A stretch of 64,000 nucleotides of DNA from the human T2T-CHM13v2.0 reference genome, Homo sapiens: assembly GCF_009914755.1 (NCBI RefSeq), contig NC_060931.1, one strand, 5' to 3'. A program made the position numbers and the translations under genes. Positions 1 to 19,885 of the stretch are shown in pieces. Each line of letters starts with the position of its first letter. The first letter of the stretch is position 1. Under the pieces are notes generated by a model. It was not told the origin of the DNA. It did not search any database and saw nothing but the letters and a program-made list of their open reading frames with translations.

Positions 1-224
1 CATGAAAGGTTGTGGTGTGAGAGATCTAAATCTTCCTCTCCCAAGACACGAAGTGACTGGATAATTCCTAACCTTTATAAATCAAGAAATGAAGTATCAT
101 TGAGACTCTTTAGAAGAAGGAACCAGAAGTATAAAGGGAAGTCCTTTCAGGGAAGAAGAATTAGGGGATGAGTAAGGAAATATTTGAGTTTTTTAGTACT
201 ATGGGTCATGTCATGGAAGGACAC

Positions 225-930
225 TGTCATCCAAATTATTACGATAGCCTCCTAACTAGTCTCTCCTCTTCACTGCTCACCCTATGAAGAAGTGAAGTGA
301 AGAAACCAGAGCTCATTTAAAACATAGGTTGTAGCCCTCAGTTCCTCCTTTGATTCCCCAGCTCACTCATGTAACAGCCGATGTCCTGACAAGGCCCGAG
401 GAGGCTGTGCAGGATTGCCCCTCCTCCCTCCCACAGCACACCCTCTCCTGGGCTTGTGTCCTACATTATCCCCAACTCTCCTACTATTTCCCCTTAACTC
501 CAACCTACTGCACTACTTCCCATTTTTAAAACATGCCAGAAGCACTCCTTCCTGAGCGCCCTTTTAGAACATTTTCTCAGCACCTCCAAGAATGCACCTC
601 CAAGAATGCTCACTCTAGATACTCTCCTAGCTCATCTCTTACCTCCTTCATATATTTGTTGAAATGTCACATTTCTCAGTATTCCTTGACCATCCTATTT
701 AAAATTGCAACTATCATCCCCTGTTCCCATCCCCTAAAGTCCTTCTTTCTTCACTTTGCTTTTCTTTTAAGATCTGATAACCTGAGTATCTGAGCCCCAA
801 ATAAATATAAGCTCAATTAGAATATGAGTTTTTATGTTTTTGTTTTGTTTATCATTTAATTTCCCAGTATCTAGAAAAATGCCTGACTTATAATAGGAAC
901 TCAAATATTTATTTTAAAAATTAAATAAAT
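225..930 (+). mobile_element. L2 (LINE-2) 3' fragment
   Basis: Contains 'atagcctcctaactagtctc' and ends in a degenerate L2 terminus 'ccagtatctagaaaaatgcctgacttataataggaactcaaatatttatt'; boundaries approximate. Confidence 0.6.
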
Positions 931-3440
931 TTAACACTTTAATCAGCGTTCATAAGATGCATTACTTTGATTTTAATAATAATGTTTTAAAAAGCAGAAA
1001 AATTAAATGGTTAAAAAATGACATTGCTGTAGACAACATATAATTTGGGTGTTCTAGGGAAGCATTTTTGTTATTTTAAAATTGAAATGGAAATTCTTTC
1101 AATTTTTAGAATACAACCAATACTTCAGGAAGTTATTGGTGGAACAGGGAGACATTTTTAAAGTAGCCACATTTGATTGGGAATATCTGAACTCGCACTA
1201 TGAAACGTGATAAAGAATTATGCATGACTGTATATGTACCACCTACACACATTCACATAACAAAACTAGTGCAGCTCGTTTCTAGAAACTAGCATATGTT
1301 GTTACAGTGCATCTGTTGAATTCCTCATTCATTTAGAATTATTAAGATCTGAAACCAAAATGACTAAAGGACGATGTTTTCATTTTGTTTTCTCACTGAG
1401 GCATGCTCCATAGTGTTCATATAACATTTAATCTACAATAAGATAGCTCCAATAAGTTAAAACTTTCCAAAATTCACACAAGTATCAATTTATACCTACC
1501 ATTGTGTGAAAAGCATAATTAAATTATTAACTTTATCAGTTGTAGATTTGTCACTCTATCTCTGTTTTAAATATATTACCAATTAACTGATGCTATATTA
1601 TACTAAAAAACAATCATGACTCTTCAAAAAGGAAAAGGATATTTAGTACAGCCACCTGTTAGGAGAAGAATGTCTTTGTAGGCTACAGTTCTCATCAGTG
1701 AATGCCATCTTTGGACAACTTGCTTCTACTGTGAGCTGCAACAATGGGATGGGGAATATAGGCTTTCCTGGCTTGTGACATTAAGTGATTTCTTAGTCTG
1801 AAATCCTCTAAAGTTATTGCTTCTATAATGTTTCCTATGTCATATTGTGAAATGTAGCCCTCTGTGTTGTAGTTCAAAAATTTGCAATTAATCACCAGGT
1901 ATGGATTCCACAATTGTTGCTTCATCCCTTAGTTGGAAAAGAGTGAGGCAAGTTTTCCTTCCAGCTTCATATCCTTTTCATTAATGAAGGAACTTGAGTC
2001 TACTGCTCAGTAACATGATGGGTTTTGAGGTAAATTCCCTGACCTGAAGCTACCACAAGCATGAAATCTGCAAGGGGATTCTGAATTTATCTTTTAGAAG
2101 AACAGTAACTATTAGACTCTGGAGAAAATAAATAGCAGCTATAGAATGTATGGAGGACTCCAGGTTGGATTAGAGATGTCAGAAATAACTAAGGTGTTCA
2201 TTTAAGGGCGACTAAGGGAAAATAAAAGGATTTGAGTTGTTTGTCTTGGCTGAAAGCACTTTAAATGGAGAAAAGCAACTACGGCACTTATTTATAAGCT
2301 TAGGTAAGGAATTAAATTGAATTTCACTGAGTACTGTGATAGCTCTTTCCATGGACTTAAAGCCTATATTTTATTGTATTTCATTCTAAGACTGTCTTTT
2401 GACCAAATGAGCTTTTCCAGAATAAAGTATTTCAAAGTCGCATCAGCTCTACCTTGCTCTAAAAGATATCTATTACTGTTTACTACCATAATGAATAGAT
2501 ACATTTTTCATCTACTCAGTGGGAACAGGATCACACTGCTCAGTTTTATAATAATAATTTCACTTATTGCATGTCCATGTGCTATGCACTGTAGATACAT
2601 TATATCATTTGATATTCACAAACATTTTGAGACAGAGGCAATGTTTTCTATAGTTTATTAACGAGGTCATAAAGGTTATAGGACTTTCTTGTGGATAGAA
2701 AACTGGGAGGTGGCAAAGCTATTGCTTGAAGTCACAACTGTTTGATTGGGGGTGATTAGTACTTAGGAGTAAGACAACCAGGCATGTACATCAGAATCAC
2801 ATGAGAATTTTTCCAAAATACACAGCTCAGGCAACACCACAGATTTACTTAGGACCAGAATAGTTGTACTTTGCAGAGCTGCCTGTGTGGCTAAAAACCT
2901 CAGGTCTAAGGGAGGGATCCAAGTTTCATCTCTCCAATGCTGCCATTCACAAATGATGATGAAGGCAGCACTCCAGGCCATGCGTATTTACATAGGACAC
3001 ATGCGGGACCTTTGGTTAGGGTTCTACTTGTATTATCATTGTTCAGTGCCTAATGAGCGTTAATTAAGAAACTCATTTCCCTTACCACCGAGGAGTGGGC
3101 AGGACCAAAGGGTTGGGGCAAAGTTTTGTTTACTCTATCTAGGAAGGGAACAAACAGAGTGGAGCAAAAGAAAACACACAAAAGAATTTAGAAAAGTCAT
3201 TTTTTTTCCAAAAAAAAAAGATATTAGTTTTTTTCTTGGATAAAGTTCTGCGAGATCAGAAAATGCTAGCATAGGGCAGGCAAAACTGTATGTCTATTAC
3301 CTTAGGGTAGTTTTCTGGGCCTGAGAATTAAATTTATATAAGATAGATTAACAGGAGAACACCATACAAATTTATACAAGTTTTATGTGATGTGGGAGCC
3401 CTTGAAAGAAAATGAAGACCCAAAGATGTAGCAAAACCTA

Positions 3441-5847
<2,407 letters not shown>

Positions 5848-6369
5848 AACAGGGTCTGTTTGTAAACAATTTCCTCTGTCTCAACTTCTTGTCCTTGACT
5901 ATAAAAATGTTGCTTTCCTTTGGTATAGAAAGGACATCTTTCACATGAGAATTTCATATCCTGCTTTTAAGAAAAAAAAAAGGTCAGAATGTTTTTCTTA
6001 CAACTGCTGTTTTTCTAGTGCTTTTAGCTCAAAATAATCTGTATGGAAAGTGACATATTTGGGGGTGGCATATTCTGCTAACCTTGACTCGTCTGGTACT
6101 TCCTTCCTGAAACTATGGCTGTTAATTAAAGTGGCCCTGGATGGCTTGAATAACGTGGTCCTGGATAGCTGCCGATGCCTGAGCCATGGAGAGGGGACTA
6201 GCTAGAAGAAGGTCTTGAATCGTCACAGGGAAAGCCATGGAATTGAAATCTCTTGGGCTGGACTGCTGATAATGAAGGAATGGTATTAAAAAATAGCATA
6301 AGCGAAAGACACTGGGTAGTCTCTAGTAGTTTCTCCTGGAGAAAACAATTCCAGCCAGGGGCTGTTTAT

Positions 6370-6490
6370 GTATTTATTCATTAATTAAACAAACATTTAC
6401 TAAGTATTTTCTCTGTACTGGTACTAGGTCCTATGATGCAAAGTTAATTAATCAGCCTGGTTTTTAGGGAGGGGTAATCTAGTGAGTGAA
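6370..6490 (-). mobile_element. L2 3' end fragment
   Basis: 'tttattcattaattaaacaaacatttactaagtatt...gtactggtactagg' resembles the antisense L2 terminus. Confidence 0.5.
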
Positions 6491-7249
6491 AAAGGCCTTC
6501 AAACAAGTAAGTGTAGCCATCTTTTGCATTGCTGATGATTCATCTTGCATTTTGTTTTTTGTGACTTAGAGAGAAACTCTTCTGTCCATTTCTGGAAGTG
6601 AGAAATGTATTATGAAGTAACAAAATAGTACTCACTCCCATCCAGGATGGAAGGCAAATCTTTCTCCTTCTCAAAACTGGACAATTGTGTTTGTGTTCTG
6701 AGAGCTAAGGCCTCTTTATGATAATTGATCAAGCTTTTGTGGATGAATGATCAACCCCAAGTAAGCGAGGGGTAAAAATCAAATTATAGAAGAAAGATAC
6801 TGGGTCCCAGAGTTCAATGTTTGAGTTCAGTCCCTGTGAAAGCTCAGAGTCTGGCAGGAGTCCCAGGAAGAAATGAATTCAGTGGACTGGGATGGGGGGC
6901 ACTATTAGGGTCCTATGTGAGTGAATGCCCAGGAGCTAGAGGATGGACTGGGGATGGGTCATTGAGTAACATCAGCTTCACTCACGGGTCATCCAATCAC
7001 AAGAGCCAACATAATGTCCTGAACACAGCTCAGTCTCTCAACACCTGGTCAAAGCAGTTCTGGGCAAGGAGACTCACAAGACCTAGAGAACAGCGAGGAG
7101 TTTTTGAACCTATACTTTAGGGCTAAATTAGGTAGTAAAAGGACCAGTGAAGGGACATAAAGGAGTGGACACCTCTGGGATATATTATTATATATATAAC
7201 TCCAATATCAGCATTTTCTTTAAGATCACTTCCCTCTACTATAGAGTTC

Positions 7250-7572
7250 AAGAATAGGTGATTTAAACAACGGAAATTTATTTTCTCACAGTTCTAGAAG
7301 CTAGATCAAGGTGCCAGCCAATCTGGTTTCTGGCAAGGATTTTCTTGGCTTGTAAACATCACCTTCTCACTGAGTCCTCACGTAACAGAGAGAACAAGCA
7401 TTTCGGTATATTTTCTTATAAGGGCACTGATACCATCAAACCAGGGCCCCATTCTTATGACCTCATTTAACCTTTGCCAGCTCCTCACAGGCCCTCTCTC
7501 CAAATAGAGTCACATTAGAGGTTAGGGCTTTAACATATGAGTTTGGGGGGAACACCCATTCAGTCCATAACA
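7250..7572 (-). mobile_element. MLT1A/B-type MaLR solo LTR
   Basis: 'aaacaacggaaatttattttctcacagttctag...ttataagggcact...cattcagtccataaca'. Confidence 0.85.
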
Positions 7573-8429
7573 GTGAGTCTATGGACATTTAATTTAAGGT
7601 GTTAATAGAGCCTCAAGTTTCTGGGATCTAGGTTTACAATTGTTTGGGGGTTTTTCTGATTTTAATTCTTTGATTAGCTAAAACAAATACAATTTATAGA
7701 GATAAAACTGATTCAGAGTTATAATTTCCAATCAAATACATTTCCAAGGATAGAAATTTTTAATTTCATAAATAAGTGATTCCCAAATATAAGACTCGTG
7801 CTAGTAGTTCATGTGTTTTATGAGTTCATGATAATGTTTTCTGTTTCCTATTGCAAGAATCAGGTATCAACCTGGGTATCAACTTGCTGCTCCAGTTGAA
7901 AATAGCATATTTACTAAAGATGCTGTTAGCCTTAAGCCTGTTTGTGAGACATTCTTGTGATTACTTTATGCTCATAATGCTTAACTCTTGGAGTTCACAG
8001 TTTGGAAAAATCAGCTGTTCAGTCAGGGAGCTGCTTCAGAGAGTTTAATTTATAAATCTTCTAACTCTTTGGTTTTATAATAACTCAATTATTCTTCATG
8101 TTTTTCTAAGAACTCCCGTTGTATTCAATTTACCTGAAATAGGAACTCTTAATTCTCATCATGTCTGTTTATTATAGTAACTTTAAAAAAATATCTAATA
8201 TAGAAAATTCCAATACCTAATAATTCATTAGAAAGTCCTTAATGCCTTACAACACTATCCAATTTATAGCATGCACCAGTTGAAGATACAAGTAATAGGC
8301 AAAGTAAGGCATATAATGTAACAGAAAACATTTTGAGATTTTTTTATTTCATTGAAACTATACTAAATAGGTTGTATTTTATACTGTTAGAATTTTGAAA
8401 TCATCAAAAAGTAGTAAATTGTTTATAGT

Positions 8430-8528
8430 TTTGCTTTAAATATTAGCCCAGAAGATTTGAAAGGACAAATACATGCAAGGAGATGAATTAGAAGAGTATT
8501 GAGCTGGACTGTTCTAGATGTGGCAAGA
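8430..8528 (+). repeat. 99-bp apparent donor segment duplicated at 11388-11486
   Basis: Ungapped manual alignment, 92/99 identical. Confidence 0.95.
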
Positions 8529-10204
8529 GCTTGAACCAGGGCAGTAATATCAGGGGTGTATCATGTGTTAGTAGTATCAGACGGCAGTATCCTAGTTGAA
8601 TATCTGGGAAATACTCATTAAAAATCCAACAAAATGTTTTATTTCCCCATTATTGCCCAGTTCCATTCCAGGCAAACAATAGTTAGACTTGATGAGACAA
8701 TGAAAGATGGTAGGCTATGACTGGGACTTTTTGAGATCAAGATAATAAACCTATTGTTATCATTTAAGATATAAAATAATTATTATTTTTGATGTCCCAT
8801 CACATGTCAAGAAAAGCACTATGTGCTTCACGTGTTATTCTATGTAATTTATAAAATACTCATAATCACTTGGCAGTTGAATGTTAAATATTGGGATTTG
8901 GAAAGTAACTTGGTGCCAGTTTACTGTTTTATTCACCAGATCATGATTTTCCCAGATTTCTATCTAATCTAAAGTCTAAAGAATATATACCTTCAAAATA
9001 GAACCAGATCCCTGACACTAGGGATCTAGCAAAATATACATAGTTATTATGCATAATATTTTAAATTAAAGCACTGAACATGGACAAGGTACATTATTAT
9101 TAATAATAAAACTATTAATATTTTAAATATAATTTCTAGGAGAAAAATGTGCTATTCAAAAAAGTGTTCTTGCTTTAGTCATAATTATACATATCAAGCA
9201 TTCAAATCAATTAAAATTAAGTCAATAAAAAGGCAGATGTGTACTCAGATCTGGAAAGATACTAACATCGATCACACATAAAAAAAATGTTTGGGTAGAA
9301 CAAGAATCTGGACCATAGTTATTTAAACCACAGATTCAAAATTATCCAGGACATTTACTTGCCTCATTTTTTCTCTATCAGTCAACTTTCTTCCCTCAGA
9401 CTACATTTTTCAGCCAACTAAAAAACAAGCCTCTCTGGCAGCTTCCACTATCACATTTTCTCTATATCTTGACCAGTGTGGGAAAAAGTTCTTTTCGTCT
9501 AGCAAAGTTTAAATAAATAAACACACACATAAATAAACAGTAACAAACTTATATATGGTTTGCCAGGAGGATGAATTATTCTCCAAGACTAGACCAAGGT
9601 AAATCATATTTTAAGCTCTGTGTCTGGGGTGATAGAATACCATGATTATCAGTACAATCAGACCATGACTAGAACCAGGGAAAGACAAATGATTTCCCAA
9701 AAGAAAAGCTTGTAGGACAGGTGTGGGCACTGGAAAAAAGGTGGTATATGGGACAGTCAATCCAGTTGTGGTCTACTGAATCTCCTACTGAGTTATATTA
9801 AACTAGATTATCAATCCTTTCATAAAAATACAGAAAATATTTTATCTTTTATAAGAGCTTAATAAATATTAATATAATTGATGTAAACTGAAGTTAAATC
9901 ATTTGGATATACGCAATAAGTTCATTGTTAAACAATTAGAAAACTTGGATTTTAAAGGAAATTATTTTAAAAGAGCATATTAAGTAGATGGAGAGTCAAT
10001 AAATGATGTTAGAACAACTAGATGGGCTTCTGGCAAAAAGTAAAGGTAAAGTTTTTTCATAACTTTAGCAGAAGAAAATGGATTAAAGATATAAATGTTG
10101 AAATCATAAAAAAACTAAATAATCTATGGTGGTCTAAAACATTACATTGGGGAAGATTTTTTTAAAATGAAATAAAATTCTCAAGTCCAGAAAAAATATT
10201 TGAA

Positions 10205-10293
10205 TATATATATTTGATGCAGATATAAATATATATACATATACATATACATATATACATATATATATTTATATGCATATATATATTTATATG

Positions 10294-10343
<50 letters not shown>
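10205..10343. repeat. Compound (TA/TACA)n + (CA)~23 microsatellite
   Basis: Directly visible. Confidence 0.98.
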
Positions 10344-10345
<2 letters not shown>

Positions 10346-10522
10346 TTCCAAAAAGCAAAGCCAAAGGAAAGGAGTTTGTTTCTCCAGGAGATACAAAGCA
10401 TTGATATATCAATAAGAAAAATGTCTGTCAACCCAGCAGAAACAAACTTGGACAACTCATTGGAAGGAAGAAAGGAAGAAAGAAGAAGGAGGAAAATTCA
10501 TAGAATAAGAAATACAAATAAC

Positions 10523-10804
10523 TTTTTTTTTTTTGACAGAGTGTCACTCTGTTGCCAGGCTGGAATGCAGTGGCAGGATCTCCACTCACTGCAACCTCCA
10601 CCTCCCTGCCATTCTCCTGCTTCAGACTCCCGAGTAGCTGAGACTACAGGCGCCCGCCACCACTCCCAGCTAATTTTTGTATTTTTAGTAGAGACGGGAT
10701 TTCACCATGTTGGCCAGGATGGTCTCTATCTCCTGACCTCGTGATCTGCCGTCCTTGGCCTCCCAAAGTGCTGGGATTACAGGCGTGAGCCACCGCGCCC
10801 AGCC
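10523..10804 (-). mobile_element. AluSc-like SINE
   Basis: Antisense Alu with 'ctgttgccaggctgg'; TSD-like acaaataacttt / acagataacttt. Confidence 0.93.
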
Positions 10805-11154
10805 ACAGATAACTTTTAAAACATGTAAATAGAGATCTATTAAAAGTAGAATTCCTTTTATTTGCCATCAAGTAGATACAGATAATATGCAATATAATAC
10901 TTCGTAATCAAAGTCATGAAGAAACAGCACTTTCAGACACAGAATATAAACTGAAACAACCTCTATGAAGTCTAATTTGAAAATATCAATTAAAATGCAA
11001 AATGCACATTCCCATTGAATACTTAGTTCCATTTTTGAGATTTCACCTATGTTTAATATTATATGTTTTAAAGCTGCTATTTGCGCAAGGGTATTTATTG
11101 TACTCCTATTTAAAACAGCAGGAGAAAAGACTTCACTAGTCTTCAGTAAGCAGT

Positions 11155-11682
11155 TCCTTAGTCCATTCAGGCTGCTATAAGAGAATACCATAAACTGCGT
11201 GACTTATCAACAACAGGCATTTATTTTTTACTATTCTGGAGGCTAGGAAGTCCAGAATTAAAACCCTGGAAGATTCAATACCTGGTGAGGTCCTGCTTCC
11301 TGGTTCATAGATGATTGTCTTTTTGCTGCAATCTCACCCAGTGGAAGAGGTTGTGGCAAAAGATCTCTCCAGAATCAAGGATTCTCCTTTGATTTAAATA
11401 TCAGTCCAGAAGATTTGAAAAGACAAATATATGCAAGGAAATGAATTAGGAGAGTATTGAGCTGGACTGTTCTAGATGTGGCAAGAAAATACACTTTTTT
11501 CCTCCAAGAAAACAAAAACAAAAACACAAGAATCTCTCCAGAATCTTTTATAGGACACTAATCCCATTCATAAATGACTTCCCAAAGGCCCTGCCTCCAA
11601 ATTACCATCACATTGGGGATTAAGTTTCATCATAGTAATTTGCCAGGGGTGGGCCAGGGCAGCAAACATTCAGGCTATAGCA
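11155..11682 (-). mobile_element. MLT1A-type MaLR solo LTR, interrupted at 11377-11531
   Basis: 'cttagtccattcaggctgctataa...' through '...aaacattcaggctatagca'. Confidence 0.85.
11377..11531 (+). other. TSD-flanked, A-tailed insertion containing a copy of 8430-8528 (retrocopy-like)
   Basis: ATCTCTCCAGAATC at 11363-11376 and 11532-11545; tail aagaaaacaaaaacaaaaacacaag. Confidence 0.85.
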
Positions 11683-11815
11683 AATGTGACCATGGTTTAA
11701 TAATAAAATGAAATTTTACTGTACAAATGTATATCAATTTTACTGATATGGAATGACATAATTATACTGATATGGAATGACTTTATTTTTAAAAAATGAA
11801 AAAGAGCAAGGAGCA

Positions 11816-18075: not shown

Positions 18076-19885
18076 TTGATTTTTAAAAAGATTCTCCCAT
18101 TGTATTTTATCTCAGTAATTCTTCTATGACTTTCTGCTCCAGTTTCATGGTTGCCTCATCTTCATTAACTTACAAGTCCAGCTTTTGAAGTTTATTCTAA
18201 TTACTTCCTAATAACTTTTAGAATTGTTGTACTGGGTAATTCCAAAATTTCACCCATTTTGTTGTTGTTTCTTGTTTACTTTTCTTCAAAGATAGGTGAT
18301 CTAACCTCAGAATTTGCCAGCTGAGAGGAAATACGGTTTGCATGTGGCCCCCACTCCTTGTCCACTTGGAACCTGATAAAATTGTGTTCTTAGATTTACA
18401 GCTGGAGCACAAGTATTATTCTCAATGGCTTGGCAAGTTCTAGTATCTAGCCAGCTGCATCTCCCACAGATCTACTGGACCTTAATGGAGACTTTCTGGG
18501 AGTTCCAATTTCCACAATGAGGCAGCAACTGGAGAAATCAGTTTGGCAATCTTGGGCATCAGAGTGTTGTGAGGGAAGGTAACGAAGGGTGACATGGAAC
18601 TATTCCCTCCAGGATAGAAGGATGACTACTCAGCTTTCTCACTGGTATTAATATGTTTCTCTGAATTACTGGGCAGAAAGTACGAGAAGACTAAATTGTT
18701 TTTTCTATATTACTTGTAGATGGACGGAGAATAGGCAGTCCACAAATTGTTTTTTCTTCAAAGACTTTCTATCACCTGTAGTTAGTACATTCCTCTGAAA
18801 CTGTAGGCATTTGGCTGGTTTCCAGAGTTAGTTAATATTTGATTTTTGTTTTCTTCATCTTTGGATTTCAAACAAAAAATTGAGGATTTTCAAACAAAGA
18901 TTGAGATCTGTTAATTACATATCATTTGAACAGGAATTGAACTAAAAAATCAAAAACAGTGTTGGACAAGCAAGGAAAAAATAAATATAATCTATAATTC
19001 TTTCTCCTTGCTACCAACCACTTTTACTTAAATTGTATTTGGCTCCTAAAATTGTAATTCTAGAAGAATAGACTTTGAATATGGCCTAGGGCATGGTATC
19101 ATGTCAGAATAGCTATTGGTTTTTAAAGTGCCACAGTGTAAGTATAGATATAGCCCACTAAAATTGTTGCTACGTGTGTGCCTTATATCTATAATGTATA
19201 TGTCTGAATGTGTATACATACGTCTTATATGTCTGAATGTGTATATATACATGTCTTATATGTAAAGATAATTTTAGCAATTATAAAAATTGCATGAGAT
19301 TTATATTGAATAATCTAAAGACACATATCTCCTTTTTTATCTTATCAGTAACTAGAAGAGTAAACTTGGATAGTTTAATCCGCAGATTTCTCAGTTCCTC
19401 TATCTGAAAAATAAAAATACTTTCAAAATTACTTTCCAAAATCATAATCACATAAAATATAGAGAAATCAAAAAGTAATTAACAATTGTAAACTTGAAGT
19501 ATTGACTTAACACTCATTTATTTGAGATTTTTTTCAGTGATATTATGTACCAATTTCTTATTTATTTGTTTAATGCTTATCCTTCCTGACCAGAACCTAA
19601 ACTCTTTCACTGTCTTGGTCTTTTTCATGTCCCAAGACCTAAGGACAGTTCTCAGCCCGTAATGAGTATTTGTTGAATGAATAAATAAATAAGCCAGCAG
19701 GGTGCTGGAAATATAAACATAGTTTACAGTCCTTGATCTGCTGGGTCTCACATTAGCCTTAACTCATGAACTTGAAGTTTAGAACATTTTGTGTACATGT
19801 GTTCAAGTGAAAGTTCATAAAGATAGAGTAAAATATGCTAGTTAAGAATGAATTCAAATTTTGAGAAATAATAGGTCCAAGGTAC

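What the first reader, a model, noticed from the sequence alone, without database searches (positions are those of the whole stretch)
11363..11545. Local sequence re-inserted 3 kb away with retrotransposition hallmarks (TSD plus A-rich tail)
Seen: an MLT1A LTR is split by a 155-bp insert flanked by a 14-bp direct repeat (ATCTCTCCAGAATC). The insert is 11 unassigned bp, a 99-bp copy of 8430-8528 (92/99, same strand, no gaps), about 19 unassigned bp, then an A-rich tail (aagaaaacaaaaacaaaaacacaag). The donor starts just after 'tttatag', a possible acceptor AG. Inference: either L1-mediated cis retrocopying of a local, possibly spliced, non-coding transcript back into its own locus, or a poly(A)-only insertion that captured nearby DNA as template. 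The first would be fossil evidence of germline plus-strand transcription here. About 7% divergence implies an old primate event.
Basis: partly seen in the sequence, partly recalled or inferred. Interest (0 to 1): 0.75.

Follow-up and report, generated by a model that had tools for sequence, protein, structure and literature searches.

The report
Short L1-type insertion copying nearby DNA
A 155-base insertion with the hallmarks of LINE-1 machinery split an old LTR and carries a 99-base copy of unique sequence lying only 2.9 kb upstream, a real but small fossil of a known kind of event whose only odd feature is that its source is so close.

Summary
A perfect 14-bp direct repeat (11363-11376 and 11532-11545) flanks a 155-bp insert. 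Within it, 11388-11486 matches 8430-8528 at 92/99, ungapped and on the same strand. In the whole T2T genome the 99-mer, the full insert and the donor with 300 bp on each side each match only these two places. The same search recovers thousands of LTR copies at 74-81% identity. Paralogous LTR copies carry one copy of the 14-mer site and no insert. This is therefore a discrete insertion with a target-site duplication and a 26-nt A-rich tail, most likely made by L1 ORF2p. Splicing is not supported. The donor has no GT at the 3' boundary, and no upstream exon end was found in 68.9 kb searched. The 11-nt and 19-nt ends have no identifiable source. The best reading is a composite target-primed reverse transcription event that switched template onto a locally available plus-sense template. 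RNA is somewhat favoured over DNA, but the sequence cannot decide between them. Estimated age is about 17-38 Myr. It fits "class 1 templated sequence insertions", except that the donor is local. Interest is low to moderate.

The parts
8430..8528 (+). Donor: unique 99-bp sequence, template of the copied segment
   Evidence: It matches 11388-11486 at 92/99, ungapped. The donor plus or minus 300 bp matches only itself and the copy in the whole genome. No Rfam family matches, there is no RNA structure signal (z +1.09), and all three forward frames contain stops (read by eye).
11157..11376 (+). Left arm of the interrupted high-copy LTR (MaLR-like; the 'MLT1A' name is not testable here), ending in TSD copy 1
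   Evidence: 38 paralog matches to the left arm at 74-81% identity, from 3655 candidates of which 40 were scored; alignment.
11358..11362 (+). AAAAG run directly 5' of the TSD; on the bottom strand it reads CTTTT/GCC, a possible L1 endonuclease nick site if the TSD originally extended into it
   Evidence: Read directly from the sequence. The strict 14-bp boundary gives GAGAT/CTTTT instead, so this is compatible with an L1 site but not shown.
11363..11376 (+). Target-site duplication, copy 1 (ATCTCTCCAGAATC)
   Evidence: 14/14 identical to 11532-11545. It is homologous to a single-copy site in paralog LTRs (7 of 7 printed).
11377..11387 (+). 11 nt of unassigned 'extra' sequence at the 5' junction (AAGGATTCTCC)
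   Evidence: No plus-strand upstream source was found in 48.4 kb + 20.5 kb. Its resemblance to the target site is not significant (460 of 5000 random window 11-mers score as well).
11388..11486 (+). 99-nt copy of 8430-8528, in the same orientation as the A-rich tail
   Evidence: 92/99 identity with 6 transitions, 1 transversion and none at CpG; K2P 0.075.
11487..11505 (+). 19 nt unassigned (AAATACACTTTTTTCCTCC); it contains AATACA at 11488-11493, 12 nt before the tail (a minor poly(A)-signal variant by recall)
   Evidence: No match with <=3 mismatches from -40 kb to +52.6 kb around the site. The 22-mer with <=2 mismatches gives 10 non-self hits, none on chromosome 7. The 19-mer with <=1 mismatch gives 16 non-self hits, none on chromosome 7.
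11506..11531 (+). A-rich tail (26 nt, 20 A), read as a decayed poly(A)
   Evidence: Composition. It sits immediately 5' of TSD copy 2.
11532..11545 (+). Target-site duplication, copy 2
11546..11682 (+). Right arm of the interrupted LTR
   Evidence: Right-arm pieces match paralogs (4 rows; 14 of 28 loci). It is contiguous with the left arm in paralogs.

Best explanation
A single insertion made by the LINE-1 machinery (ORF2p endonuclease plus target-primed reverse transcription) hit a pre-existing MaLR-type LTR roughly 17-38 million years ago. The product is composite.

1. Reverse transcription was primed at a nick next to an A-run in the target. It began on a poly(A) tract, which is now the 26-nt A-rich tail, together with 19 nt of unknown origin.
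2. The polymerase then switched template onto a plus-sense copy of unique sequence lying 2.86 kb upstream on the same chromosome, and copied 99 nt (8528 back to 8430).
3. The 5' end was joined to the upstream target end with 11 extra nucleotides.
4. Staggered second-strand cleavage produced the 14-bp duplication.

The second template was most likely an unspliced local RNA, either nascent or chromatin-retained. I favour RNA over local single-stranded DNA by only about 60:40.

Shown: the insertion, its duplication and tail, the uniqueness and polarity of the donor, and the absence of splicing evidence. Inferred: ORF2p as the enzyme, the template switch, and RNA as the template. No function is implied; it is a neutral fossil.

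The confidence of 0.5 is for this full statement including the RNA template. The broader statement, an L1-type target-primed insertion with a locally derived template that may be RNA or DNA, I put at about 0.75-0.8.
For: - **Duplication and insert:** perfect 14-bp TSD around a 155-bp insert ending in a 26-nt tail with 20 A.
- **Insertion into an existing LTR, aligned paralogs:** 10 of 10 aligned paralog LTRs lack the insert.
- **Flank offsets in paralogs:** 0 of 28 paralog loci show the +155 offset expected if the insert were ancestral. Of the 8 loci whose right-arm alignment reaches the junction, 7 give offsets of -16 to -20, against -14 expected for a single copy of the site plus a 4-bp indel in the left arm.
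- **Printed junctions:** 7 of 7 printed junctions have one copy of the site.
- **Unique donor:** the donor and copy are the only two genomic matches. The same tool finds 74-81% LTR paralogs.
- **Orientation:** the copy has the same orientation as the tail. Passages of Law & Burns 2025 say this orientation is produced by template switching or RNA processing, while twin priming gives opposite orientations.
- **Target site:** an A-run (AAAAG) abuts the TSD, giving TTTT/G on the bottom strand if the TSD is extended by 5 nt.
- **Known class:** TSD, A tract and non-annotated intergenic donors are the stated features of class 1 templated sequence insertions ascribed to L1 ORF2p (PMC5110952, text parts 1-2 read).
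- **Proximity:** by my arithmetic, a random trans retrocopy would land within 2.9 kb of its source with probability of about 2e-6. This points to a proximity-dependent choice of template.
Against: - **Nick site:** at the strict 14-bp TSD boundary the bottom-strand nick reads GAGAT/CTTTT, which is not the TTTT/A consensus. The L1-like reading needs a 19-bp TSD with two mismatches next to the tail.
- **Poly(A) signal:** there is no canonical AATAAA upstream of the tail, only AATACA.
- **First template:** the 19-nt segment that would represent it has no identifiable genomic source, so a template switch is inferred from one assigned segment only.
- **Transcription:** no gene or transcript is annotated in the window (hub annotation), and no expression data could be consulted.
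- **RNA versus DNA:** nothing in the sequence shows that the 99 nt passed through RNA. It is colinear with the genome, with no intron removed.
- **Orthologs:** no orthologous empty site was examined.
Confidence: 0.5

Rival explanations
1. The L1-type nick and tail are the same, but the 99 nt were copied from local DNA rather than RNA. While the insertion intermediate was being resolved, the growing minus-strand cDNA, or a repair polymerase, used nearby plus-sense single-stranded DNA as template. That DNA could have been exposed at a replication fork or R-loop, or could have been an Okazaki fragment made on the minus-strand template.
For: - The donor lies only 2.86 kb away on the same chromosome and is strictly colinear with genomic DNA over 99 bp.
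- There is no splicing signature, no annotated transcript, and no PAS at the donor's 3' boundary (hub annotation).
- Short unassigned 'filler' at both junctions (11 and 19 nt) is typical of repair-type joints. PMC5110952 lists microhomology and non-templated additions for repair-type insertions.
- That ORF2p can copy DNA, and that L1 integration is linked to replication, is recalled knowledge and was not checked here.
Against: - No junction microhomology of more than about 1-4 nt can be demonstrated.
- It requires plus-strand single-stranded DNA at a specific place and time.
- Class 1 insertions with a TSD and A tract are attributed to RNA templates in the literature read.
- No paper describing local DNA capture at L1 insertions turned up in three searches (listings only).
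Confidence: 0.25
2. This is an ordinary retrocopy of one contiguous polyadenylated, possibly spliced, local non-coding transcript. On this view the 11-mer, the 99-mer and the 19-mer are three exons or exon parts, or the donor locus was rearranged after the copy was made.
For: - An AG lies at 8427-8428 after a T-rich stretch, one base before homology begins.
- AATACA lies 12 nt before the tail; its status as a PAS variant is recalled.
- The plus-strand lncRNA LOC105375488 lies 87-107 kb upstream (hub annotation).
Against: - The donor has no GT or GC-type donor site at the 3' boundary (GGCAAGA|GCTTGA).
- A terminal exon of about 19 nt is implausible.
- No plus-strand site ends in the 11-mer (<=1 mismatch), or its 8-11-nt suffix followed by GT, in 48.4 kb directly upstream or in the 20.5 kb of the lncRNA span (0 hits).
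- The 19-mer has no source with <=3 mismatches from -40 kb to +52.6 kb and no <=1-mismatch hit on chromosome 7.
- An AG within 1-2 nt of a boundary is expected by chance about one time in eight (my arithmetic).
Confidence: 0.1
3. The event was L1-independent. A staggered double-strand break with 14-nt overhangs was filled in and patched with captured local DNA plus an A-rich filler.
For: - The strict TSD boundary does not match the L1 endonuclease consensus.
- The donor is local.
- Unassigned filler sits at both junctions.
Against: - A 26-nt A-rich tract lies exactly at the 3' end, abutting the TSD, in the orientation expected for target-primed reverse transcription, next to an A-run in the target.
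- Repair-type (class 2) insertions are described as lacking both a TSD and a poly(A) tract.
Confidence: 0.05
4. The match is not a specific copy event: the 99-mer belongs to a dispersed repeat family, or the match and the TSD are chance.
For: None was found. The genome tool warns that its counts are lower bounds and that very common words are skipped.
Against: - Three searches each found 2 of 2 candidates, even at E<=10.
- The same tool finds 3655 candidates for the flanking LTR.
- The match has E 5.7e-38 within the window.
- The 14/14 duplication sits exactly where it restores LTR continuity.
Confidence: 0.01

Closest known systems
Class 1 templated sequence insertions / polymorphisms (TSI/TSIP; Onozawa & Aplan, PMC5110952, text parts 1-2 read)
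   Same: - A non-L1, single-copy genomic sequence is inserted with a TSD of at least 5 bp and an added A tract.
- The donor site is intact.
- Donors include non-annotated intergenic sequence.
- The events are attributed to L1 ORF2p acting on non-L1 RNA.
   Different: - TSIPs are defined as templated from a distant region, whereas this donor is 2.86 kb upstream on the same strand.
- There is no canonical AATAAA.
- The nick site matches TTTT/A only loosely.
- Only 99 of the 129 non-tail bases can be assigned to a donor.
- This one is old and present in the reference assembly, not shown to be polymorphic.
Chimeric retrocopies formed by ORF2p template switching or RNA ligation (U6/L1 and related; Law & Burns 2025 preprint, abstract and passages seen; PMC2104539 tripartite chimera, listing abstract only)
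   Same: - Several segments lie in the same orientation within one TSD.
- A poly(A) sits at the 3' end.
- The 5' partner is a nuclear RNA located near the reaction.
   Different: - The 3' partner here is not L1, Alu or a recognisable mRNA end; it is 19 nt with no source.
- The 5' partner is not an abundant small RNA but a unique intergenic sequence next to the target.
- No Rfam family matches.
Extra nucleotides and microhomology at 5' junctions of L1/Alu insertions (recalled literature, not read here)
   Same: 11 unassigned nucleotides lie between the upstream TSD and the copied segment.
   Different: Nothing distinguishes this case. It is mentioned only because it makes the 11-mer unremarkable.
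Orphan L1 3' transduction
   Same: A short piece of unique DNA with a tail and a TSD, and no L1 sequence.
   Different: - The nearest upstream plus-strand L1 (3530-5848) is 5'-truncated and 5'-inverted with its own TSD, and ends 2.6 kb before the donor.
- The donor's 3' boundary has no poly(A) signal.
- The donor's 3' boundary is not contiguous with the 19-mer or the tail.

Membership tests
L1 ORF2p-mediated insertion of non-L1 sequence (class 1 TSI) | Target-site duplication of at least 5 bp flanking the insert | tested here: met
   14/14 at 11363-11376 and 11532-11545. The site is single-copy in paralog LTRs.
L1 ORF2p-mediated insertion of non-L1 sequence (class 1 TSI) | Non-templated A tract (10-40 A) at the 3' end, abutting the TSD | tested here: met
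   The 26-nt tract at 11506-11531 has 20 A and is interrupted by C/G, as expected after decay. It is absent from the donor's 3' flank.
L1 ORF2p-mediated insertion of non-L1 sequence (class 1 TSI) | Polyadenylation signal 10-30 nt upstream of the A tract | tested here: inconclusive
   There is no AATAAA or ATTAAA. AATACA lies at 11488-11493, 12 nt before the tail; its status as a minor variant is recalled, not tested.
L1 ORF2p-mediated insertion of non-L1 sequence (class 1 TSI) | Insertion at a 5'-TTTT/A-3' type endonuclease site | tested here: inconclusive
   The strict boundary reads GAGAT/CTTTT. If the TSD extends 5 nt into the AAAAG run, the site reads CTTTT/GCC, which costs two mismatches against the tail end.
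L1 ORF2p-mediated insertion of non-L1 sequence (class 1 TSI) | Insert templated from a unique, intact genomic donor elsewhere ('distant') | tested here: inconclusive
   The donor is unique and intact for 99 of 155 bp, but it is 2.86 kb away rather than distant. The 11-nt and 19-nt ends are unassigned.
Processed (spliced) retrocopy | Intron loss or exon-exon junctions relative to the source locus | tested here: not met
   The 99 bp are colinear with the genome. The donor has no GT at the 3' boundary. There are 0 upstream candidate exon ends in 48.4 + 20.5 kb.
Chimeric retrocopy by template switching | Two or more segments traceable to different transcripts, same orientation, one TSD, 3' poly(A) | tested here: inconclusive
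   One TSD, a tail, and a segment in the same orientation as the tail are all present. Only one segment can be traced, and the 19-mer has no source.
Orphan L1 3' transduction | Copied DNA lies directly downstream of a competent source L1 and ends at a poly(A) site | tested here: not met
   The upstream L1 at 3530-5848 is truncated and inverted: RVT_1 matches on the minus strand at 3441-4151, and its own TSD is visible. The donor end has no PAS and is not contiguous with the tail.
Dispersed repeat family | Many genomic copies | tested here: not met
   2 of 2 candidates in each of three whole-genome searches. As a positive control, the flanking LTR gives 3655 candidates.
Small-RNA retrogene (snoRNA, Y, 7SL, U RNAs) | Match to a known RNA family, or a stable fold | tested here: not met
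   No Rfam match up to E 10 overlaps 8430-8528. Only one weak match overlaps the insert: TeloSII_ncR33 at 11451-11706, 15.6 bits against a gathering score of 105, E 5. Fold z-scores are +1.09, +1.06 and -0.94.
MLT1A LTR (identity of the host repeat) | Best match to the MLT1A consensus in a repeat library | not testable with these tools
   No Dfam or RepeatMasker is available. What is shown is a high-copy LTR-like repeat of about 525 bp with paralogs at 74-81% identity. The MaLR resemblance is recalled.

The most novel reading that the evidence does not exclude
The closeness of donor and target is causal. An ORF2p complex engaged at its nick took as second template whatever plus-sense nucleic acid was physically tethered there. 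That could have been a nascent unspliced transcript running from 8.4 kb through the insertion site, or a plus-sense Okazaki fragment or single-stranded DNA at a passing fork. If RNA, the insert is a roughly 17-38-Myr-old record of germline plus-strand transcription in what is now an unannotated gene desert next to GRM8. More generally, it would define a searchable class of 'cis' templated insertions that screens designed around distant donors miss.
Probability: 0.4. Interest if true: 0.45.

Novelty: new member of a known kind. Interest (0 to 1): 0.3.

Why it matters
On its own it matters little. It is a neutral, fixed, 155-bp fossil in a gene-poor region with no sign of function.

Its value is as a clean, fully resolved example. 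The donor is unique, the duplication is perfect, and the empty site is supported by paralogs. It shows L1-type machinery inserting sequence from 2.9 kb away, where chance proximity is very unlikely (about 2e-6 per random event, my arithmetic).

If such local events are recurrent, they would say something about how ORF2p chooses secondary templates, namely by proximity to nascent RNA or to fork DNA. They could also serve as strand-specific fossils of ancient germline transcription or replication polarity. That needs a genome-wide survey, not this single case.

Tried and rejected
1. **Multi-copy repeat.** Rejected: 2 of 2 candidates.
2. **Known RNA family.** Nothing meaningful on the donor or insert at E<=10.
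3. **Structured RNA.** No signal.
4. **Source of the 19-mer.**
   - No local match with <=3 mismatches in 104 kb, that is 40 kb upstream plus the window, nor in the 20.5-kb lncRNA span.
   - Genome-wide, the 22-mer with <=2 mismatches gives 10 non-self hits, none on chromosome 7.
   - The 19-mer with <=2 mismatches gives 297 hits against 172 for the reversed-pattern control. Only the first 100 rows are listed, so 2-mismatch hits on chromosome 7 outside my local range were not seen. The 16 hits with <=1 mismatch are all on other chromosomes.
5. **Source of the 11-mer.** Only three 1-mismatch hits turned up in 104 kb: one on the plus strand downstream at 18087, and two on the minus strand. None fits an upstream plus-strand exon. 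Suffix+GT searches gave 0 hits.
6. **The 11-mer as a partial third copy of the target site, or the 19-mer as derived from donor flanks.** Not significant: 460/5000 and 1229/5000 random window k-mers score as well.
7. **Minus-strand RNA with twin priming.** This would need the reverse complement of the 19-mer near the donor. None was found on either strand.
8. **Lariat branch-junction read-through.** Neither internal junction is followed by GT (read by eye).
9. **Orphan 3' transduction from the L1 at 3530-5848.** Rejected.
11. **Fetching 200 kb upstream.** 40 kb and 20.5 kb were obtained instead, so -87 to -40 kb and everything beyond -107 kb remain unsearched.
12. **Literature on local or 'cis' donors for L1-type insertions.** Three full-text searches, judged from listings only, gave nothing on point. 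This is not proof that none exists.
13. **First literature query.** It failed on term syntax and was re-sent.

Full report
**What is there**

- ATCTCTCCAGAATC occurs at 11363-11376 and again at 11532-11545 (14/14).
- The 155 bp between them (11377-11531) consist of four parts:
  - 11 nt (AAGGATTCTCC);
  - 99 nt (11388-11486) that match 8430-8528 at 92/99 with no gaps and on the same strand (blastn E 5.7e-38 within the window);
  - 19 nt (AAATACACTTTTTTCCTCC);
  - a 26-nt tail with 20 A.
- Homology stops sharply on both sides. The 40 bases upstream agree at 11/40 and the 42 bases downstream at 9/42, which is chance level.

**Is the 99-mer a repeat?**

- The 155-bp insert, the donor with 300 bp on either side (701 bp) and the 99-mer alone at E<=10 each gave 2 first-look candidates and 2 matches, the donor and the copy.
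- The tool warns that its counts are lower bounds, so I used the flanks as a positive control. A query covering 11160-11690 gave 3655 first-look candidates. Of these, 40 were scored, yielding 38 left-arm matches at 74-81% identity, 4 right-arm pieces, plus self and the donor.
- The search therefore sees old repeats at that divergence, and the donor region is effectively unique.

**Is it an insertion into a pre-existing element?**

No other primate genome is held, so I used paralogous copies of the LTR as a family-level empty site.

- Of 28 paralog loci (L006-L033), 14 also had a right-arm hit.
- Ten of these had colinear arms close together and were aligned. I dropped L012 (right-arm hit in the opposite orientation) and L019, L028 and L029 (right arm more than 300 bp away).
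- 10 of 10 lack the insert. One of them, L009, has an unrelated extra stretch of about 22 bp.
- Across all 28 loci I projected the offset between the end of the left arm and the start of the right arm. It is never near +155. It lies between -37 and +29 in 25 loci; the three outliers (+300, -375, -260) have weak or displaced right-arm alignments.
- In the 8 loci whose right-arm alignment reaches within 14 nt of the junction, 7 give -16 to -20. The expectation is -14 for a single copy of the site, minus 4 for a small indel in the window's left arm visible.
- Seven printed junctions all read left flank, one 14-mer homolog (consensus-like CTCTCTGGGGTCTC), then TTTTATAAGG....
- So the LTR was intact, and the 14-mer was duplicated by the insertion.
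- I cannot confirm the subfamily name MLT1A. Its resemblance to MaLR LTRs is from memory.

**What kind of insertion?**

- A perfect TSD with an A-rich tract directly abutting the downstream copy is the signature of target-primed reverse transcription by L1 ORF2p.
- It matches the published definition of class 1 templated sequence insertions: a TSD of at least 5 bp, an added A tract, a TTTT/A site, a PAS upstream of the tail, and donors that include non-annotated intergenic sequence (PMC5110952, text parts 1-2).
- Two of these features are only loosely met.
  - With the strict 14-bp TSD the bottom-strand nick is GAGAT/CTTTT. The target has AAAAG just 5' of the TSD, so a nick at CTTTT/GCC with an originally 19-bp TSD is possible, but that costs two mismatches against the end of the tail.
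  - There is no AATAAA. AATACA sits 12 nt before the tail, and its standing as a minor signal is recalled.

**What the copied piece is not**

- **Not a known RNA family.** No Rfam match up to E 10 falls on the donor. The only overlap with the insert is a 15.6-bit hit against a gathering score of 105.
- **Not a structured RNA.** Fold z-scores are +1.09, +1.06 and -0.94.
- **Not coding.** It has stops in all three forward frames (by eye).
- **No evidence that it is an exon.** The AG at 8427-8428 is one base off the start of homology (T at 8429 against C at 11387). The donor reads GGCAAGA|GCTTGA at the other end, with no GT.
- **No upstream exon end found.** If the 11-mer were the end of an upstream exon, it should lie upstream on the plus strand followed by GT.
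  - In 48.4 kb directly upstream (40 kb fetched plus window 1-8429) and in the 20.5 kb spanning lncRNA LOC105375488, there are 0 such sites. This holds for the 11-mer with <=1 mismatch and for exact suffixes of 8-11 nt plus GT.
- **Not an orphan 3' transduction.**
  - The only upstream plus-strand L1 (3530-5848) is 5'-truncated with an inverted 5' part. RVT_1 matches on the minus strand at 3441-4151 (E 6e-30), and the 3' end and tail are on the plus strand.
  - It has its own 10-bp TSD and ends 2.6 kb before the donor.

**The unassigned ends**

- The 19-mer has no match with <=3 mismatches anywhere from -40 kb to +52.6 kb.
- Genome-wide, the 22-mer with <=2 mismatches has 10 non-self hits, none on chromosome 7.
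- The 19-mer has 16 non-self hits with <=1 mismatch, none on chromosome 7. With <=2 mismatches there are 297 hits against 172 for the reversed control, which is close to background, and the list is truncated.
- The 11-mer looks a little like the start of the target site (10 matches in a 12-column gapped alignment), but 460 of 5000 random window 11-mers do as well. The best local resemblance of the 19-mer is matched by 1229 of 5000.
- Both ends are best treated as filler, or as remnants of templates that cannot be traced.

**Mechanism**

- The insert is composite: a tail plus 19 nt of one origin, 99 nt of local origin in the same orientation, and 11 extra nt at the 5' joint.
- Same-orientation concatenation within one TSD is what template switching by ORF2p, or prior RNA ligation, produces. 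Twin priming would invert one part (passages of Law & Burns 2025).
- A random trans template would come from within 2.9 kb of the target about 2 times in a million (my arithmetic: 2 x 2.9 kb / 3.1 Gb). Proximity therefore almost certainly mattered. Two local templates fit.
  - A plus-sense RNA still tethered near its gene, such as a nascent transcript running from the donor towards the insertion site.
  - Plus-sense single-stranded DNA nearby.
- I favour RNA modestly, because every other hallmark is that of an RNA-templated L1 event. Nothing in the sequence proves RNA passage, since the 99 nt are colinear with the genome.
- I put the target-primed, locally templated reading as a whole at about 0.75-0.8. 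Within it, RNA stands at about 0.5 of total probability and DNA at about 0.25.

**Age**

- Seven differences in 99 positions (6 transitions, 1 transversion, none at CpG) give K2P 0.075.
- With assumed neutral rates of 1.0-2.2e-9 per site per year, which are my assumption and not a tool result, this is 17-38 Myr.
- The binomial 95% interval on 7/99 (2.9-14%) makes the range much wider.
- All seven differences lie in the first 63 positions. By my arithmetic (63/99)^7 is about 0.04, so this is suggestive of nothing in particular.

**Comparison with known kinds**

- It works like a class 1 templated sequence insertion or a chimeric retrocopy, and I file it as a new member of that kind.
- It departs from the definition in one respect that was tested: the donor is local, not distant.
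- It is inconclusive on two others, the endonuclease site and the PAS.
- Three full-text searches for local or 'cis' donors in L1-type insertions (listings only) found nothing on point. I do not claim that it has never been described.

**Verdict**

The retrotransposition-type interpretation is supported. The splicing idea is not supported. The inference of ancient germline transcription is possible but unproven. It is a tidy curiosity of low to moderate interest unless a genome-wide survey shows that it is one of many.

Noticed in passing
window 3520-5858: A young-looking L1 3' portion with a 5' inversion, the twin-priming pattern. RVT_1 is encoded on the minus strand at 3441-4151. The rest of the ORF2 C-terminus, the 3' UTR and an A-rich tail are on the plus strand up to about 5848. 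It is flanked by a 10-bp direct repeat, ACAGGGTCTG, at 3520-3529 and 5849-5858. The family name (L1PA-like) is recalled, not tested.
   Followed up: partly
window 10149-10350 and 10557-10805: A TA/TG-type simple repeat gives spurious miRNA-family hits. It is followed by an Alu on the minus strand (Metazoa_SRP partial matches at 44.6 and 25 bits, below gathering), lying between donor and insertion site. If the Alu is younger than the insertion, the donor-target distance at the time was about 0.3-0.4 kb shorter.
   Followed up: no
window 11546-11600 versus paralogs L006-L033: The window's LTR lacks about 20 bp that paralogs carry just after CCCATTCAT (they continue ...GAGGGCTCCACCCTCATGACC...). 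It also has about 4 extra bp in the left arm near 11347-11351. These are ordinary indels of an old LTR, but they shift junction offsets and had to be allowed for.
   Followed up: partly
window 8434-8492 / 11392-11450: All 7 donor-copy differences fall in the first 63 of the 99 positions, and the last 36 are identical. This is marginal (about 0.04 by my arithmetic) and unexplained. It could be chance.
   Followed up: no
L044, about window -31081 (minus strand): A 1-mismatch copy of the 11-mer followed by GT lies on the minus strand 31 kb upstream. Its strand and position are wrong for the plus-sense insert, so I took it as chance.
   Followed up: partly
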